Shown here: piece after piece, positions 8,854 through 18,084 of the stretch | How the letters are laid out: each line of letters opens with the position of its first letter | Numbering within the stretch: the first letter of the stretch is position 1 | From: a virus | Strand: one strand, 5' to 3' | UHGV virus genome: UHGV-0281963 | Length of the DNA stretch: 23,374 bases | Program-made: the position numbers and the translations under genes | The notes under the pieces: generated by a model | Database searches by the model: none | Seen by the model: the letters and a program-made list of their open reading frames with translations, nothing else | Told to the model about the DNA's origin: nothing

Positions 8854-8975
8854 CTCTGTCGCGGTTTCTATCCGGGGTTCCTAATCCCGACGCCAGATTT
8901 TGCTGGCGTGCGATGAATATAATCCCGGATACGCGACGTTGTCAAACTGATGGCATTGCAGATCCCTACGCAATG

Positions 8976-10635: not shown

Positions 10636-10791
10636 TTACTCCTCAGGTTCGTAAGCTGTGAAGACAGTGACCTCCGTCTGGCCGGTTCGGATTCGTACCT
10701 CGCAGAGGTCTTTCCTCGTTACCAGTGCCGTCACAATGACGGTAATACAGATGACGATCAGGGCGACTAACATCGCCTTTTGCTGCTTCAT
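10636..10791 (-). CDS. hokD: Hok/Gef-family type I toxin (HokD/RelF-like)
   Basis: MKQQKAMLVALIVICITVIVTALVTRKDLCEVRIRTGQTEVTVFTAYEPEE (51 aa) is near-identical to HokD/RelF as I recall it; RBS AGGAGA before ATG 10791. An in-frame upstream ATG at 10848 would add 19 residues (70 aa total). Confidence 0.8.
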   Translation of the reverse strand: MKQQKAMLVALIVICITVIVTALVTRKDLCEVRIRTGQTEVTVFTAYEPEE

Positions 10792-11036
10792 AGCCTGCTT
10801 CTCCTTGCCTTTCGGCGCGTAAGAGGCTAACCTACATGTGTCTAGCATGAAATTGGCCTCAGATTAATGTTAGGCGTCTTGCAGGACGCGTAATGTTAAC
10901 TGGGGCTTTTCTCTGTCTGCCTTACGGTGGCATGCCCGAGGCAGACAGCCTCAAGCACCCGCAGCAATTCTACTTAACTCTCGCTTTACCGCAAACCGTT
11001 TTTACCCGATATGGGAATTCCCATATCGTAATGAAT

Positions 11037-13104: not shown

Positions 13105-13845
13105 TCACATACCCTGACGTCCAACGTTTGACCGCCAGCTCTCCCAGTTAAAATTCACCCAACGACCACCGTTCATGGTCATCCGGTCCATAATCCTCTC
13201 ACCAAGAAGCGTGCTCATTGCGGCATGATTCAGGTTTGTCAGCATCCCGACACTGCGCAGTGATGCCGTCCGGCGGTCAACAATCTGGTGCAGTACCACC
13301 TGCTCGTTTTTCGTCTCACGCTGGATGCCAATTTCGTCAAGAACCAGGAGGTCCACTTCGCACAGTTCACGCAAAAATTTTTCCCCTGACAGTCCGTCGT
13401 CATAGCTGGCATGTAACGCGCTCATCACATCCGCCACGGTGACCACTATCACGGATTTACCGGCCTTCAGCAGACGATTACCCACAGCCGCCGCCAGATG
13501 ATTTTTTCCGGTTCCCGGATTCCCGCTGAACACGAAGTTTGTATAACCGGTCATCAATTCATCGACAATGGATTTCGCCTGGCTCAGAGCATGGCGCTGA
13601 CCGTCGTTCTGCACCCGGTAGTTCCCGAATGAGCACTTCCTGTGAAGCGGCTGGATGCCCGCACGGTTCAGGATTTTTTCAACCCGCGCCTGATGATTCA
13701 GGCGGTTAATTTCCTCGCTGCGCTTACGGCCCTCAGCCAGTTGCCATTCCCGCCATTCGTCGGTCGTCCGGAACGGTGCTGCCACGTGCGGTGGTGCCAG
13801 ACGGCGCACCCGTTCAAGAATCCCTCCAGTCGAAATGTTTTTCAT
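13105..13845 (-). CDS. DnaC-like replicative helicase loader (IstB-like AAA+ ATPase), YdaV-like
   Basis: Walker A GNPGTGKNHLAAA, Walker B DLLVLDEIG, and overall co-linearity with E. coli DnaC (…CSFGNYRVQNDGQ…MLTNLNHAAMSTLLGERIMDRM…). Confidence 0.85.
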   Translation of the reverse strand: MKNISTGGILERVRRLAPPHVAAPFRTTDEWREWQLAEGRKRSEEINRLNHQARVEKILNRAGIQPLHRKCSFGNYRVQNDGQRHALSQAKSIVDELMTGYTNFVFSGNPGTGKNHLAAAVGNRLLKAGKSVIVVTVADVMSALHASYDDGLSGEKFLRELCEVDLLVLDEIGIQRETKNEQVVLHQIVDRRTASLRSVGMLTNLNHAAMSTLLGERIMDRMTMNGGRWVNFNWESWRSNVGRQGM

Positions 13846-13851
13846 GGCTGA

Positions 13852-14934
13852 TTACCCCCTGAAACCCGGCGGAATTTCGGTGTCCGGTTCAGAAATGTGA
13901 TTCACGCAACGCAGGCTGACTGCGCCAGCCTTCGGCAGCGACCACGGATTTTCGAAATTCCTGTTCGGGCCAAAAAACGTCGATGCCTGCTGAACAAATT
14001 CAGTTCCCGCTTTCCCGGTAGCCTCCAGGTATCTTGCGTAACGCCTCACGCCATCCAGCACGACATCCGGTGACACCCCTTCGCGTAATCTGGCCCTCCA
14101 GGCATTGAACGCGGATTTCTTCGGGTTTGACCCTGCCCGATGCGGATATTCACGCCAGACCCGTTCGAACACGTCAGGATAATCAACTCGTCCCGCAGAC
14201 GGTCCCGGCATCGCCCGGGTTAACCCAATCGGCTTCCCGCTCATCGCGGAATCGGCTTCAGGCTGCTGCGGTTGGCGTTGTTGCTCCGGTTCGACGATCA
14301 GCACCTGCTGCACACAACGCCCGGAATCTGCTTCCGGTGTCGTGCCAGCTGGTCCTGGACGTTCAGTCAGAACAGGACAAAAATCCCCCTGTGGGTCCGT
14401 GGCGATTTTTTCGCCATGGACCAGAAGGGTTTTATCCCTTTCCTGTTCTTGTTCCTGTTCCTGTTCTTGGCTTGAAAGGGGCTCTGAAGGGGCTTCAATT
14501 TTCCGACATGATTCACGTCTGACATCCAGGTGGAAATCATCCTTATATCTATCATAAAAGGATGATAAAAAAGGATTTTCCAGCAACGCGGAATATTCAT
14601 TTCTTACCCCAGCACAACGGTTATCGCCAGGTTTCAGCGATTCACCAACCTGCCATGCTGCCATTTCATGCACCCATACAACCTCAGAATCATGGTCATA
14701 GCTGCAAAAACCAGCCTCGCAAGCCATTTGAAGCCCCTTAGAAGCCCCTTCAGGATCAAGTCCGGTTTCGTGAGCAATGTACAAAACAGGCAGGTAATAA
14801 AGGCCCAGCATATTGGAATGAGGCGAGGTCATCATATACAACGCCACTACCATACTTTCCGGACCAGACTTCCTTAGTTTTCGCCCTGTATCGCCTAACC
14901 AGAACTGAGGTGAAATTGTTGCGTAATTACGCAT
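13852..14934 (-). CDS. phage replication initiation/organiser protein (YdaU-like), with internal QEQEQEQEQE repeat
   Basis: 360-aa ORF immediately upstream of the DnaC-like gene (Rac ydaU-ydaV-like order); RBS GAGGGG before ATG 14934; contains an internal copy of the iteron-like repeat. Confidence 0.7.
   Translation of the reverse strand: MRNYATISPQFWLGDTGRKLRKSGPESMVVALYMMTSPHSNMLGLYYLPVLYIAHETGLDPEGASKGLQMACEAGFCSYDHDSEVVWVHEMAAWQVGESLKPGDNRCAGVRNEYSALLENPFLSSFYDRYKDDFHLDVRRESCRKIEAPSEPLSSQEQEQEQEQERDKTLLVHGEKIATDPQGDFCPVLTERPGPAGTTPEADSGRCVQQVLIVEPEQQRQPQQPEADSAMSGKPIGLTRAMPGPSAGRVDYPDVFERVWREYPHRAGSNPKKSAFNAWRARLREGVSPDVVLDGVRRYARYLEATGKAGTEFVQQASTFFGPNRNFENPWSLPKAGAVSLRCVNHISEPDTEIPPGFRG
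14194..14283. repeat. iteron-like direct repeat, copy A (inside the replication gene)
   Basis: cgcagacggtcccggcatcgcccgggttaacccaatcggcttc...aggctgctgcggttggcgtt recurs at 14966-15027 and 15058-15117. Confidence 0.6.
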
Positions 14935-14965
14935 AGTCCCCTCGCATACAAGATTTACTCCATAC

Positions 14966-15117
14966 CGCAGACGGTCCCGGTATCTCCCGGGTTAACCCAA
15001 TCGGCTTCAGGCTGCTGCGGTTGGTGTGACTGCACATTGGTGTGACTGCACATCTTCACAGACGGTCCCGGTATCTCCGGGTTAACCCAATCGGCTTCAG
15101 GCTGCTGCGGTTGGTGT
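14966..15117. repeat. iteron-like direct repeats, copies B and C, separated by a tandem 16-bp duplication (ttggtgtgactgcaca x2 at 15021-15052)
   Basis: Two near-identical ~60-bp units (gacggtcccggtatctc(c)cgggttaacccaatcggcttcaggctgctgcggttggtgt) upstream of the replication gene start; seen directly in sequence. Confidence 0.6.
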
Positions 15118-15187
15118 TGTTGCTGGCGAAATTCTTCCAGATGTGGCAGAATTATTCCCGTGTATTGCTCCATGCCCTGCCTGAATA

Positions 15188-15484
15188 TCAGATGTTCATC
15201 AGGATTTGCTCAGAACGTCCGGCCCCAACCGGACGTTTTTTATTTGCATGAACGTTAATGGCATGCTGGAAAGCCCGGCTGATCGGACTGATATCAGATG
15301 CCATCTGGAACGCGCATAAAATCGCCGCGATGTATCGCCAGTCGGTACGACTGACCTTCGATTCATGGCAGCCAATCATCTTCGCCAGTCCCCTTTGCGT
15401 CAGAGCTGACAGGTTGATAAGTAAATCCGTTTCAGCGCGATCGATATCGCGCTGTGACAGTTTGCTGTAACTTGTTTGTGACAT
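15188..15484 (-). CDS. cII: CII-like transcriptional activator
   Basis: C-terminus ...NKKRPVGAGRSEQILMNI parallels lambda CII ...NKKRPAATERSEQIQMEF; HTH-like segment LAKMIGCHESKVSRTDWR; located downstream of cro on the same strand. Confidence 0.7.
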   Translation of the reverse strand: MSQTSYSKLSQRDIDRAETDLLINLSALTQRGLAKMIGCHESKVSRTDWRYIAAILCAFQMASDISPISRAFQHAINVHANKKRPVGAGRSEQILMNI

Positions 15485-15550: not shown

Positions 15551-15594
15551 GCTCACCCTGTTAGAGGTGAACGACCAGCAATGTTAAAGAGCGG
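15551..15594 (-). promoter_or_regulatory. nutR-like site (boxA plus candidate boxB) on the minus strand
   Basis: Minus-strand sequence ccGCTCTTTAAcattg (rc of 15579-15594) matches lambda boxA CGCTCTTA; followed by hairpin tcacc-tctaacag-ggtga (rc of 15555-15572). boxB assignment tentative. Confidence 0.5.
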
Positions 15595-15600
15595 TGTTAC

Positions 15601-15825
15601 TTATTCAGCCTGGTTCGGATGAGGAAACAGGTGCGGTAAGTCCGGGCGAATTTCGTAAGCCTTAACCTGACCATTGGTGGCATTAACGATAGCGAAAACT
15701 TTTTCAGGAGAAACTTTTCCGCCTCGCAACCATTTATGAACAGCGGGCTGTGATACGCCGCAATCAGCTGCAAGTCGTTTTTGACTGCCAACAATATTCA
15801 AGGCTCGCTGAATCACTAAATTCAT
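15601..15825 (-). CDS. cro: Cro-like HTH repressor
   Basis: MNLVIQRALNIVGSQKRLAADCGVSQPAVHKWLRGGKVSPEKVFAIVNATNGQV: small HTH protein divergent from cI across the operator region; GAGG 7 nt before ATG 15825. The ORF-track start at 15879 is rejected as a hydrophobic upstream extension. Confidence 0.7.
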   Translation of the reverse strand: MNLVIQRALNIVGSQKRLAADCGVSQPAVHKWLRGGKVSPEKVFAIVNATNGQVKAYEIRPDLPHLFPHPNQAE

Positions 15826-15852
15826 GAGCATACCTCTACAGCAAATAAAGCA

Positions 15853-15924
15853 TAACCAAAAATAACATGAGTTATACACCAGGGCAATAACAATTGTTGT
15901 TTTACTTTTGATAACCGTGGTTAT
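15853..15924. promoter_or_regulatory. OR operator region between cro and cI: ATAAC-N4-GTTAT palindromes
   Basis: ataacatgagttat (15862-15875) and ataaccgtggttat (15911-15924), plus ataaccaaaaataac and palindrome aacaattgtt (15889-15898). Confidence 0.55.
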
Positions 15925-15935
15925 AGATTACAGGT

Positions 15936-16643
15936 ATGAAAACATTCGCAGAAAGACTAAATGCCGCCATGAGTTCAGCCGGGTTGTCACAAGCACAACT
16001 TGCAGACATGGTGGGGGTATCACAACCAGCCATACAAAAGATGTCATCTGGTAAAACAACCGGATCACGTAAAATGGTCGAATTAGCCAACGCGTTAAGA
16101 GTTCGCCCTGAATGGCTAAGCTCTGGTATAGGGTCAATGAGACCACAGAGCGCAGAAGAGCCATCTAATGCTCGGGAATCATCTTTAAAAGCTATCGCCT
16201 GGGATGATCATCAAAATGATAATGAAGAATTTGTTGCGCTCCCCCTTCTAAATATTTCACTTTCAGCTGGCGGAGGAAGTTGTGCATTGGAGGAGTCCGC
16301 AGAATTCTCTCTAGTTTTTAGGCGCTATTACCTGAAAAAAATGGGAGTTCCAGAAAAAGCGGCAAAGTTGGTCAGGGTTGTTGGGCAAAGCATGGAGCCA
16401 ACACTCCATGATGGTGATGTGGTGGGGGTAAACACGCAAGATACGAGCATCAGGGATGGTAAAACATATGCAATTTGCCAAGCTGATTTGTTAAGGGTAA
16501 AAACGCTCATAGCCACGCCAACATCGGTAATTATCAGATCGATAAACCGCGAAGAGTATCCTGATGAAGTAATGAACAGAGAAGAATTCTACAAAAACGT
16601 AAGAATCATAGGGCGAGTGTTCTGGTCATCACATAGCTGGTAA
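15936..16643 (+). CDS. cI: CI-type prophage repressor (N-terminal HTH, C-terminal S24 LexA-like autopeptidase)
   Basis: HTH segment LSQAQLADMVGVSQPAIQKM; S24 motif VVGQSMEPTL (Ser nucleophile) and downstream Lys (RVK); divergent from cro. Confidence 0.85.
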   Translation: MKTFAERLNAAMSSAGLSQAQLADMVGVSQPAIQKMSSGKTTGSRKMVELANALRVRPEWLSSGIGSMRPQSAEEPSNARESSLKAIAWDDHQNDNEEFVALPLLNISLSAGGGSCALEESAEFSLVFRRYYLKKMGVPEKAAKLVRVVGQSMEPTLHDGDVVGVNTQDTSIRDGKTYAICQADLLRVKTLIATPTSVIIRSINREEYPDEVMNREEFYKNVRIIGRVFWSSHSW

Positions 16644-16768
16644 TCAGACTCCAACTGAACTTTTGCTATAAGAACACTCACGAAGAACGGCCTTTTATTG
16701 TGCTCAATACCACCGATGGTAAACCATTCGCCAAGTAGCCAATTCATAAAATGCCATTTCTAAATCCC

Positions 16769-16794
16769 CCCGGCTCCAGTGCCGGGTTTTATTT
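16769..16794 (+). terminator. rho-independent terminator downstream of cI
   Basis: Stem cccggc (16769-16774) / gccggg (16781-16786) followed by ttttattt. Confidence 0.55.
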
Positions 16795-16796
16795 AC

Positions 16797-17018
16797 TTAA
16801 TTACACAGTCGCATATCCTGAAGTAACACATCTATAGCTAACTTCACAGCGAGATCATCCAATTCATCATGGTGAAGCACTCGGATCATTCCCGCAATAG
16901 CATCTGCTGAAATAGCTTCCCCAGTAGCAATAACCTCAAGCAACGACACCCCTAGAATTTCGACTACCCGCTGGTGCAACACACCAAATTCCCCTTCGAT
17001 TAACATGCAATCACCCAT
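16797..17018 (-). CDS. hypothetical small acidic protein (about 73 aa) between cI and pL/OL (rex-equivalent position, opposite orientation)
   Basis: ORF-track ORF (88 aa from 17063); preferred start ATG 17018 with AAAGG/AAGGGGG upstream; no family recognised. Confidence 0.4.
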   Translation of the reverse strand: MGDCMLIEGEFGVLHQRVVEILGVSLLEVIATGEAISADAIAGMIRVLHHDELDDLAVKLAIDVLLQDMRLCN

Positions 17019-17113
17019 AACAATCAGCCTTTCCCCCTTGAAAATATCACGCGGATACCACAAAAAATAAAATATTTTTGTTATCAGTCATTTATAACGT
17101 TTTTCATAAAATG

Positions 17114-17154
17114 ATAAATATAGTTATTGCACAACCAGATAACTTAGGTTATCT
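17114..17154. promoter_or_regulatory. OL operator region: 18-bp perfect palindrome agATAACttagGTTATct plus ataaatatagttat
   Basis: agataacttaggttatct at 17137-17154 shares the ATAAC-N4-GTTAT half-sites of OR; second imperfect site at 17114-17127. Confidence 0.5.
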
Positions 17155-17202
17155 TCAATTCAACAGCAGGACGCTGGAAGCCAAACGGAACAGATTGGCC
17201 GG

Positions 17203-17240
17203 CTCTTTAACATTGATGGACTCTCAACCTAACCGTTGAG
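17203..17240 (+). promoter_or_regulatory. nutL-like site (boxA GCTCTTTAA plus boxB-like hairpin)
   Basis: gGCTCTTTAAcattg (17202-17215), same 14-mer as in nutR; hairpin ctcaac-ctaacc-gttgag at 17223-17240; upstream of the N-like gene. Confidence 0.55.
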
Positions 17241-17351
17241 ACCAAAATCTAAGTGGTTTTGGGGATGACGCGAATTTCAGTTGCAAGGCCGCGATCGAGA
17301 AGAAAAACACCTCGACGCGTCATACACCAAAGCCACTTAAAGGAGACCATC

Positions 17352-17657
17352 ATGGTAACCATAATCTGGAAAGAATCCAAAGGTACGGCAAAAAGCCGCT
17401 ATAAAGCTCGCAGGGAAGAACTTATTGCAGAGCGGCGCAGTAGTGAAAGACTGACACGGAAGATTGCGCTAAAGATCTCTGGTTGCGTCGGAGCAGACAA
17501 AGCAGTATCACTCGGAAGCCTTCGCTGCAAGAAGGCAGAAGAAGTCGAGAGTAAACAGAACCGTATTTACTACCGCAAACCACGCAGTGAAATGGGTGTG
17601 ACTTGCTCAGGCCGCCAGAAACAACGCGGAAAATCAATTCCGGCTTATTACGATTGA
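17352..17657 (+). CDS. N-like antitermination protein (basic, Arg/Lys-rich N-terminus)
   Basis: First gene after nutL; RBS AAGGAG 6 nt before ATG 17352; MVTIIWKESKGTAKSRYKARREELIAERRSSERLTRK is basic like an arginine-rich motif. Assigned by position and composition; no sequence similarity to lambda N claimed. Confidence 0.5.
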   Translation: MVTIIWKESKGTAKSRYKARREELIAERRSSERLTRKIALKISGCVGADKAVSLGSLRCKKAEEVESKQNRIYYRKPRSEMGVTCSGRQKQRGKSIPAYYD

Positions 17658-17947: not shown

Positions 17948-18084
17948 AATTCTTCAGGCCGCCGGAAAAATGCAGCTTAAACTGGACGAATTCATCGACT
18001 GTATGGATGAAATGAATAAAGCAGTTCAGAAGCTTAAAGAGCTGACCGCCTGATATTAATAAATTGCAACTACCGGAGTTAACT

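What the first reader, a model, noticed from the sequence alone, without database searches (positions are those of the whole stretch)
15551..17240. nutR and nutL share an identical 14-nt boxA segment but have different boxB hairpins
GCTCTTTAACATTG is present in both sites in the transcribed orientation. The downstream hairpins differ (ctcaac-ctaacc-gttgag versus tcacc-tctaacag-ggtga) but share a CTAAC loop core. This supports the N-like assignment and defines a candidate RNA motif for this N family.
Basis: partly seen in the sequence, partly recalled or inferred. Interest (0 to 1): 0.4.

Follow-up and report, generated by a model that had tools for sequence, protein, structure and literature searches.

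The report
Phage-21-type N/nut antitermination sites

Summary
GCTCTTTAACATTG occurs exactly twice: at 15579-15592 (-), downstream of a cro-like gene, and at 17202-17215 (+), upstream of an N-like gene. Each copy is followed 6 to 9 nt later by a hairpin with a six-base loop: CUAACC at nutL and CUAACA at nutR.

Residues 8-29 of the N-like protein match the phage 21 N peptide of PDB 1NYB at 21 of 22 positions. That peptide was solved bound to a boxB RNA with a CUAACC hexaloop.

The imm21 region of lambda DE3 has an identical nutL boxB. Its nutR boxB differs from the window's by one loop base.

Across about 86 related loci, the N-terminal arginine-rich motif and the boxB type change together, in phi21, lambda, P22 and other classes. 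Six of the seven stem pairs show compensatory changes.

The same region is 100% identical in sequenced E. coli chromosomes and 99% identical in phage PA28 and Stx1a phages.

The only small novelty is the CUAACA nutR loop variant, which recurs in this lineage. The finding is ordinary and of low interest.

The parts
15579..15592 (-). nutR boxA (core GCTCTTTAACA at 15592-15582) plus the first 3 spacer bases
   Evidence: Exact match. It lies 9 nt after the cro-like stop codon, in the transcribed orientation.
15551..15572 (-). nutR boxB hairpin: stem GUUCACCU/GGGUGAGC, hexaloop CUAACA (15564-15559)
   Evidence: Predicted fold. One loop base differs from phage 21 nutR in lambda DE3. Covariation count.
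17202..17215 (+). nutL boxA (core GCTCTTTAACA at 17202-17212) plus the first 3 spacer bases
   Evidence: Exact match. It lies about 40 nt downstream of the inferred PL start.
17222..17241 (+). nutL boxB hairpin: stem UCUCAAC/GUUGAGA, hexaloop CUAACC (17229-17234)
   Evidence: Fold z = -4.5. Identical to phage 21 nutL boxB in lambda DE3.
17352..17657 (+). N antiterminator gene (101 aa). ARM residues 8-29 are phi21-type. AAGGAG Shine-Dalgarno at 17340-17345.
   Evidence: PDB 1NYB 21/22 and 6GOV_N E 1.8e-6. PHROG 271 E 7.6e-35. 82% identity to phage 21 N.
15601..15825 (-). cro-like HTH gene, first gene of the PR operon
   Evidence: Pfam YdaS_toxin, HTH_3 and P22_Cro hits. Annotated as Cro in phage PA28.
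15936..16643 (+). CI-like repressor (HTH plus S24 peptidase)
   Evidence: Pfam Peptidase_S24 1.5e-17 and HTH_3.
15188..15484 (-). cII gene, first gene downstream of nutR
   Evidence: Pfam Phage_CII 6.5e-26.
15862..15924 (.). OR: three ATAAC-N4-GTTAT operators (15862-75, 15887-900, 15911-24). They overlap the inferred PR (-35 TTGCCC 15887-15882, -10 TATTTT 15864-15859, - strand).
   Evidence: Pattern search. The promoter was read from the sequence and is inferred.
17094..17155 (.). OL: three operators (17094-107, 17114-27, 17139-52). They overlap the inferred PL (-35 TTGCAC 17127-17132, -10 TATCTT 17150-17155, + strand).
   Evidence: Pattern search. The promoter was read from the sequence and is inferred.

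Best explanation
These are the nutL and nutR sites of a lambdoid E. coli prophage whose N antiterminator belongs to the phage 21 specificity class.

Proposed mechanism:
1. Transcripts start at PL (rightward here) and PR (leftward here).
2. Each transcript carries a consensus, rrn-like boxA (GCUCUUUAACA) that recruits NusB/NusE. A short spacer follows, which in lambda binds NusA.
3. Next comes a boxB hairpin whose CUAAC(C/A) hexaloop and 5' stem side are bound by the arginine-rich helix of N (residues about 8-29).
4. The C-terminal part of N, which is homologous to lambda N, then locks RNA polymerase with the Nus factors into a termination-resistant complex.
5. That complex reads through downstream terminators into the recombination genes (PL side) and the replication and nin-type genes (PR side).

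Shown here: the sequence anatomy, the homology to the phi21 peptide and boxB, the co-variation of N ARM class with boxB class, and stem covariation.

Inferred: the promoter positions, actual binding and actual antitermination.
For: - The boxA 14-mer is exact at both sites, in the transcribed orientation.
- The hairpins fold with 6-nt loops.
- The gene order cII-nutR-cro-OR-cI-OL-nutL-N matches lambda.
- N residues 8-29 are 21/22 identical to the 1NYB phi21 N peptide. N residues 62-98 match the lambda N C-terminus in 6GOV.
- PHROG 271 N-like, E 7.6e-35.
- The imm21 region of lambda DE3 has the same nutL boxB and a nutR boxB with CUAACC instead of CUAACA.
- In 86 loci, ARM class predicts boxB class: phi21 ARM with the CUAAC loop, DNARNRRRARRQ ARM with UCCCG-CCGAAAUG-CGGGA, P22 ARM with GCGC-UGACAAA-GCGC, and lambda ARM with GCCC-UGAARAA-GGGC. 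The rest of N can be about 90% identical across classes.
- For the 7-bp stem, 97% of cells are paired and 6 of 7 pairs carry compensatory changes. Slid controls give 24-51% paired.
- In IMG/VR, every boxA-linked hairpin with these stems has a CUAA(C/U)N loop. Hits without boxA have unrelated loops.
Against: - There are no functional data for this prophage.
- Pfam N_peptide scores below its gathering cut-off (20.3 vs 27.9 bits).
- The sigma-70 consensus scan did not call PL or PR. Both promoters were read by eye as 3/6 plus 4/6 hexamers.
- No convincing intrinsic terminator was found on the + strand downstream of N, so the terminators N must overcome on the PL side are unidentified. They may be Rho-dependent.
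- The nutR loop differs from the solved CUAACC at position 6, which forms a C-C pair with loop position 1 in 1NYB. Binding to nutR is therefore extrapolated.
- The covariation rests on few independent stem types: nutL, nutR, and two sites from one distant genome.
Confidence: 0.93

Rival explanations
1. The shared 14-mer and the hairpins are coincidental similarity with no common function.
For: Arbitrary inverted 14-mer pairs occur about 1-2 times per shuffled window, so the identity alone is weak evidence.
Against: - The 14-mer is the boxA consensus, and it sits at the two canonical nut positions.
- Both copies are followed at the same distance by hairpins with the same loop.
- The arrangement is conserved in phage 21/DE3, in PA28 and in dozens of IMG/VR contigs.
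- The stems covary.
Confidence: 0.01
2. The boxA elements act alone, in an rrn-like Nus-factor antitermination or Rho-modulating mode. The hairpins serve another role, such as RNA stability, RNase processing or part of a Rho-dependent terminator, rather than acting as N-binding sites.
For: The boxA is the rrn-type consensus with the extra U. This form binds Nus factors more strongly than lambda boxA (PMC2724277). In lambda tR1, boxB also contributes to termination (Vieu & Rahmouni 2004, cited in PMC12360218).
Against: - A cognate N gene with a 21/22 phi21 ARM lies immediately downstream of nutL.
- boxB type tracks N ARM type across loci.
- The phi21 peptide-boxB complex is a solved structure.
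Confidence: 0.04
3. The sites are functional phi21-type nut sites, but the nutR CUAACA variant is a weakened or non-binding site, so N acts mainly or only at nutL in this lineage.
For: Loop position 6 pairs with position 1 (C-C) in the solved complex. Here it is A. nutL keeps CUAACC in 35 of 36 distinct contexts, while nutR varies (C, A or U) at that position.
Against: - CUAACA is fixed in 17 of 18 loci that share this N variant, and it recurs in independent contexts. That argues for tolerance, not decay.
- The rest of the site (boxA, spacer, stem, CUAA) is intact.
Confidence: 0.1

Closest known systems
Phage 21 (phi21) N protein with nutL/nutR boxB (NMR complex PDB 1NYB; imm21 region as carried by lambda DE3, EU078592)
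   Same: - The ARM is 21/22 identical to the 1NYB peptide.
- N is 82% identical overall.
- The nutL boxB is identical: UCUCAAC-CUAACC-GUUGAGA.
- The nutR stem is identical.
- The boxA core GCTCTTTAACA and the gene order are the same.
   Different: - The nutR loop is CUAACA instead of CUAACC.
- N has A22E in the ARM and a different C-terminal tail.
- boxA-spacer identity between the two sites is 14 nt here and 11 nt in phage 21.
- The cI/cro immunity genes are a different allele: only the N/nutL part matched DE3 in megablast.
- The replication genes are DnaD-like and DnaC-like rather than O/P.
Escherichia phage PA28 and Stx1a-converting phages (Traversvirus)
   Same: 99% nucleotide identity over cII-nutR-cro-cI-nutL and the first ~75 codons of N. 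Both nut sites are identical.
   Different: The match ends inside N, at window position ~17573, and the C-terminus of PA28 N diverges. The replication module also differs.
Lambda N / nutL, nutR (boxB GCCCUGAARAAGGGC, GNRA-like pentaloop)
   Same: Same operon positions, the same boxA-spacer-boxB order, an N-terminal ARM, and a homologous C-terminal RNAP-binding region (6GOV_N).
   Different: - The ARM sequence differs.
- The boxB differs: hexaloop CUAACC/A here, pentaloop GAARA in lambda.
- boxA here is the rrn-type consensus with an extra U.
P22 gp24 (N) / boxB GCGCUGACAAAGCGC
   Same: The same kind of system. The ARM layout is similar (GNAKTRRHERRRKLAIER vs GTAKSRYKARREELIAERR).
   Different: The boxB loop and stem are different, giving a different specificity class.

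Membership tests
Lambdoid N/nut processive antitermination system | Small basic N protein with an N-terminal arginine-rich RNA-binding motif | tested here: met
   PHROG 271 N-like, E 7.6e-35. Residues 8-29 are 21/22 identical to the 1NYB peptide. Pfam N_peptide is sub-threshold (20.3 vs 27.9 bits).
Lambdoid N/nut processive antitermination system | C-terminal region homologous to the RNAP-binding part of lambda N | tested here: met
   Residues 62-98 align to 6GOV_N residues 74-109, E 1.8e-6.
Lambdoid N/nut processive antitermination system | Two nut sites in the transcribed orientation: one between PL and N, one between cro and cII | tested here: met
   Positions. Gene identities. Operator triplets locate PL and PR.
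Lambdoid N/nut processive antitermination system | Each nut site consists of boxA (CGCTCTT(T)A), a short spacer and a boxB stem-loop | tested here: met
   GCTCTTTAACA, then a 9-nt spacer, then a 7-8 bp hairpin. Stem covariation: 6/7 pairs compensatory, 97% paired.
Lambdoid N/nut processive antitermination system | Terminators downstream of the nut sites that N-modified RNAP reads through | tested here: inconclusive
   There are candidate intrinsic terminators on the - strand in the PR operon at 9728-9707, 7992-7973 and 5266-5247. No convincing one lies on the + strand after N. Rho-dependent terminators cannot be predicted with these tools.
Lambdoid N/nut processive antitermination system | N- and Nus-dependent antitermination activity | not testable with these tools
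   Requires reporter or transcriptome experiments.
Phage 21 specificity class (N21 - boxB21) | ARM sequence of the ESKGTAKSRYKARRAELIAERR type | tested here: met
   21/22 identical. The single change is A to E at N residue 22.
Phage 21 specificity class (N21 - boxB21) | boxB with hexaloop CUAACC (PMC12550061, PDB 1NYB) at nutL | tested here: met
   nutL 17222-17241 is identical to the DE3/phage 21 nutL boxB.
Phage 21 specificity class (N21 - boxB21) | boxB with hexaloop CUAACC at nutR | tested here: inconclusive
   The stem is identical to phage 21 nutR, but the loop is CUAACA, changed at position 6. The variant recurs naturally: 17/18 loci of this N variant and 3 distinct contexts in IMG/VR.
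Phage 21 specificity class (N21 - boxB21) | ARM class and boxB class co-occur across genomes | tested here: met
   All phi21-ARM loci carry CUAA(C/U)N-loop boxB hairpins. Other ARM classes carry other boxB types.
Rfam RNA families | A match of the nut region to any curated covariance model | tested here: not met
   No Rfam hit at 15551-15592 or 17202-17241 at gathering thresholds. At that threshold, none of the 4227 families matched either nut site.

The most novel reading that the evidence does not exclude
The nutR hexaloop variant CUAACA replaces the C1-C6 pair of the solved phi21 boxB with C-A. The A22E substitution in the N arginine-rich helix almost always accompanies it. Together they could be a co-adapted change that tunes N affinity differently at nutR and nutL, a natural micro-shift of RNA-peptide specificity inside the phi21 class. 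The alternative is neutral hitch-hiking within one immunity module.
Probability: 0.1. Interest if true: 0.3.

Novelty: already known. Interest (0 to 1): 0.1.

Why it matters
The practical value is for annotation. RefSeq labels two genes under this match in E. coli chromosomes as 'hypothetical protein', and none as N. The nut sites are not annotated in the closest phage records. Recognising the region as a phi21-class N/nut module lets early-operon regulation in this prophage, and in the closely related Stx1a phages, be predicted from existing phage 21 biochemistry. The tables built here (ARM class vs boxB class, and natural loop variants) are a small, usable catalogue of N-boxB specificity pairs for people who use these peptides as orthogonal RNA tethers. 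Nothing here challenges current understanding.

Tried and rejected
- Rfam gathering scan: nothing at either nut site.
- Pfam N_peptide: below threshold. The assignment rests on PHROGs and PDB hits instead.
- The first Pfam call failed because my N start coordinate was off by one.
- Consensus sigma-70 scan: it called neither PL nor PR. I placed the promoters by eye relative to the operator triplets, so they are inferred only.
- Whole-site MAFFT alignment (A1): it put the nutL and nutR loops one column out of register, so I did not use it for pair counting. I used a loop-anchored 22-nt alignment instead (A2).
- Cilley & Williamson 2003 (PMC1370434) is not held. I relied on a secondary description of 1NYB.
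- Literal boxA strings could not be found in PMC2800207, PMC3177189 or PMC4807359. The prose description in PMC2724277 was used.
- A third boxA-like string, GCTCTTTAAG at 18042 (-), is antisense to the PL operon and has no CUAAC hairpin. I dismissed it as chance.
- The genome-contig scan returned only 4 loci.
- The hairpins are not intrinsic terminators: no U-tract follows either one.

Full report
**Observation.** The 14-mer GCTCTTTAACATTG occurs exactly twice in the window, at 15579-15592 on the - strand and 17202-17215 on the + strand.

Reading the flanks gives these two sites:
- nutR (- strand): ...UAA GUAACACC GCUCUUUAACAUUG CUGGUC GUUCACCU-CUAACA-GGGUGAGC
- nutL (+ strand): ...GGCCG GCUCUUUAACAUUG AUGGAC UCUCAAC-CUAACC-GUUGAGA

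ViennaRNA folds both as simple hairpins with six-base loops. nutR has 8 bp, including U.G pairs. The 23-nt nutR segment folds at -7.2 kcal/mol (z = -2.5), and the 23-nt nutL segment folds with 7 bp at -7.4 kcal/mol (z = -4.5). With that pair counted, the two sites have the same geometry.

The bare 14-nt identity is not statistically remarkable. Shuffled windows contain 0-8 arbitrary inverted 14-mer pairs, typically 1-2. Its meaning comes from what the sequence is and where it lies.

**Context.** Pfam and PHROG scans and operator searches give a lambda-like immunity region in inverted orientation:

| Feature | Coordinates | Strand |
|---|---|---|
| cII | 15188-15484 | - |
| nutR | 15551-15592 | - |
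| cro-like | 15601-15825 | - |
| OR, three ATAAC-N4-GTTAT operators | 15862-15924 | . |
| CI-like S24 repressor | 15936-16643 | + |
| Bidirectional terminator | 16769-16786 | . |
| Small gene of unknown function | 16797-17018 | - |
| OL, three operators | 17094-17152 | . |
| nutL | 17202-17241 | + |
| N | 17352-17657 | + |

I read PL as TTGCAC-17-TATCTT (17127-17155, +) and PR as TTGCCC-17-TATTTT (15887-15859, -). Each overlaps the promoter-proximal operator. These placements are inferred: the consensus scan did not call them. Both nut sites are therefore in the transcribed orientation, at the two canonical positions.

**The protein.** The 101-aa product is MVTIIWKESKGTAKSRYKARREELIAERRSSE....
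- It matches PHROG 271, 'anti-termination protein N-like', at E 7.6e-35.
- Against PDB sequences, residues 8-29 are 21/22 identical to chain A of 1NYB ('Probable regulatory protein N', the phage 21 N peptide).
- Residues 62-98 align to the C-terminus of lambda N in 6GOV, E 1.8e-6.
- It is 82% identical to the N gene of the imm21 region carried by lambda DE3.
- Pfam's N_peptide model is only sub-threshold.

**The RNA motif is the known phi21 boxB.** In lambda DE3 (EU078592, imm21) the nutL site is GCTCTTTAACATCGACGGAC-TCTCAAC-CTAACC-GTTGAGA, so its boxB is identical to the window's. The DE3 nutR site is GCTCTTTAACAGTTCTGGCCT-TTCACCT-CTAACC-GGGTGAG. It has the same stem, and the loop is CUAACC where the window has CUAACA.

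[quoted passage not shown] It cites Cilley & Williamson 2003, which I could not open. The 'candidate RNA motif' has therefore been a solved structure for two decades.

**Comparative evidence generated here.** Using N as the query, I collected 80 IMG/VR loci and 4 genome loci. For each I extracted the N start, the N-terminal sequence and the boxA-linked hairpins on both sides. ARM class and boxB class co-vary cleanly:

| N ARM | boxB |
|---|---|
| GTAKSRYKARR(A/E)ELIAERR (phi21 type) | UCUCAAC-CUAACC-GUUGAGA at nutL; UUCACCU-CUAAC(C/A)-GGGUGAG at nutR |
| DNARNRRRARRQAQREQ | UCCCG-CCGAAAUG-CGGGA at both sites |
| GNAKTRRHERRRKLAIER (P22 type) | GCGC-UGACAAA-GCGC |
| MDAQARRRERRAEKQAQW (lambda type) | GCCC-UGAARAA-GGGC |

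Residues 32-101 of the window's N are about 90% identical to the corresponding part of the DNARN-class proteins. The ARM and boxB therefore swap as a unit on a shared body, which is the expected behaviour of a cognate RNA-peptide pair.

A distant relative from Izhakiella has about 35% identity and the ARM GNSKSRYKERRK. It has a CUAACC loop on a different stem at nutR and a CUCACA loop at nutL.

On a loop-anchored alignment of ten distinct hairpins, 97% of cells are paired. Six of seven pairs show changes on both sides, and partner-slid controls drop to 24-51% paired. The independent stem types are few, so this is supportive rather than overwhelming.

Degenerate-loop scans of IMG/VR counted distinct sequence contexts. 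Every boxA-linked hit has a CUAA(C/U)N loop:
- nutL: CUAACC in 35, CUAAUC in 1.
- nutR: CUAACC in 12, CUAACA in 3, CUAAUC in 1, CUAACU in 1.

Hits without boxA have unrelated loops and are chance matches. The family motif is thus CUAA invariant, position 5 C (rarely U), and position 6 free at nutR.

**boxA.** The core GCUCUUUAACA is the rrn-type boxA with the extra U. PMC2724277 calls this form the consensus site. [quoted passage not shown] The three extra identical bases of the window's 14-mer contain AUU. In phage 21 itself the two sites share only 11 nt, so I attach no weight to the 14-nt length.

**Mechanism.** The inferred mechanism is the standard N/nut one. NusB/E bind boxA, NusA binds the spacer, and the N ARM helix binds the boxB hexaloop and the 5' stem side. 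The N C-terminus then acts on RNAP to give processive read-through.

Candidate intrinsic terminators in the PR operon lie at 9728-9707, 7992-7973 and 5266-5247 on the - strand. None is convincing on the PL side. tR1- and tL1-type Rho-dependent sites cannot be predicted here.

**How common and how known.** The 2.2-kb region is 100% identical in several complete E. coli chromosomes, including FORC_069 and NCCP15648. In those records the features under the match include two 'hypothetical protein' entries and none named N. It is 99% identical in phage PA28 and a dozen Stx1a-converting phages up to codon ~75 of N, where the sequences diverge. HK629 and mEpX1 records even carry 'putative Nut boxA site' features.

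**Verdict.** The finding is already known and of low interest. The only mildly new detail is the CUAACA nutR loop, which travels with the A22E change in N. Both lie in one 2-kb module, so the association is most simply linkage.

Noticed in passing
window 17250-17337 (+): A long imperfect hairpin lies in the N leader, between nutL boxB and the N Shine-Dalgarno. The fold of 17162-17370 has z = -5.2. It is conserved in the phage 21/DE3 leader, z = -3.6. From my own knowledge it resembles the RNase III-processed N-leader stem of lambda, which couples N translation to nutL.
   Followed up: partly
window 15212-15239 (+): A strong intrinsic terminator (11-bp stem followed by TTTTTTATTT) lies antisense to the 3' end of cII. 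Its position and orientation match those of the lambda OOP antisense RNA terminator. No Rfam hit was found there.
   Followed up: no
window 14968-15117: A direct duplication of about 90 nt (41-nt and 30-nt blocks, 100% and 87% identical) and a 16-nt perfect tandem at 15021-15052. Both lie inside the small conserved ORF 14955-15173 (-), PHROG 2751 of unknown function, between cII and the replication initiator. They could be iterons or an origin-related repeat, or a repeat within the protein.
   Followed up: no
window 16797-17018 (-): A 73-aa gene of unknown function (PHROG 3946, E 3e-30) lies between the cI stop and OL. It is convergent with cI and shares the bidirectional terminator at 16769-16786. 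It occupies the slot where lambda has rexAB, but in the opposite orientation. It is not annotated in PA28.
   Followed up: no
window 17352-17657 and loci L002, L017-L080: N is a three-part mosaic. The phi21-type ARM covers residues 1-31. Residues 32-101 are about 90% identical to N proteins with a different ARM (DNARNRRRARRQ). PA28 N is identical up to residue ~75 and then diverges.
   Followed up: partly
L084 3756 (+) and 1532 (-) (Intestinirhabdus alba): An N-like protein with the ARM NAKQRYNARRATEHRE is flanked by two boxA-linked hairpins. They share a UGAUGCA loop on different stems: CCUACC/GGUAGG and GGCUACC/GGGAGCC. I did not pursue this apparently separate N-boxB specificity class.
   Followed up: no
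window 4767-4973 (-), 8722-8806 (-), 8832-8909 (-), 10786-10960 (-): Rfam hits above gathering score: STnc100 sRNA, C4 antisense RNA, isrK Hfq-binding RNA and sok antitoxin RNA (a hok/sok-type module). All lie in the PR-side part of the prophage.
   Followed up: no
window 13105-14934 (-): The replication module is a DnaD-like initiator or helicase loader (360 aa, PHROG 1701) plus a DnaC/IstB-like ATPase (246 aa). The otherwise 99%-identical PA28 immunity region is followed by lambda-type O/P instead. There is a mosaic joint just past cII.
   Followed up: no
window 15862-15924 and 17094-17152: Tripartite operators with the consensus ATAAC-N4-GTTAT occur on both sides of cI. The six sites have 0-2 mismatches. 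This defines the repressor's likely binding site for this immunity type.
   Followed up: partly
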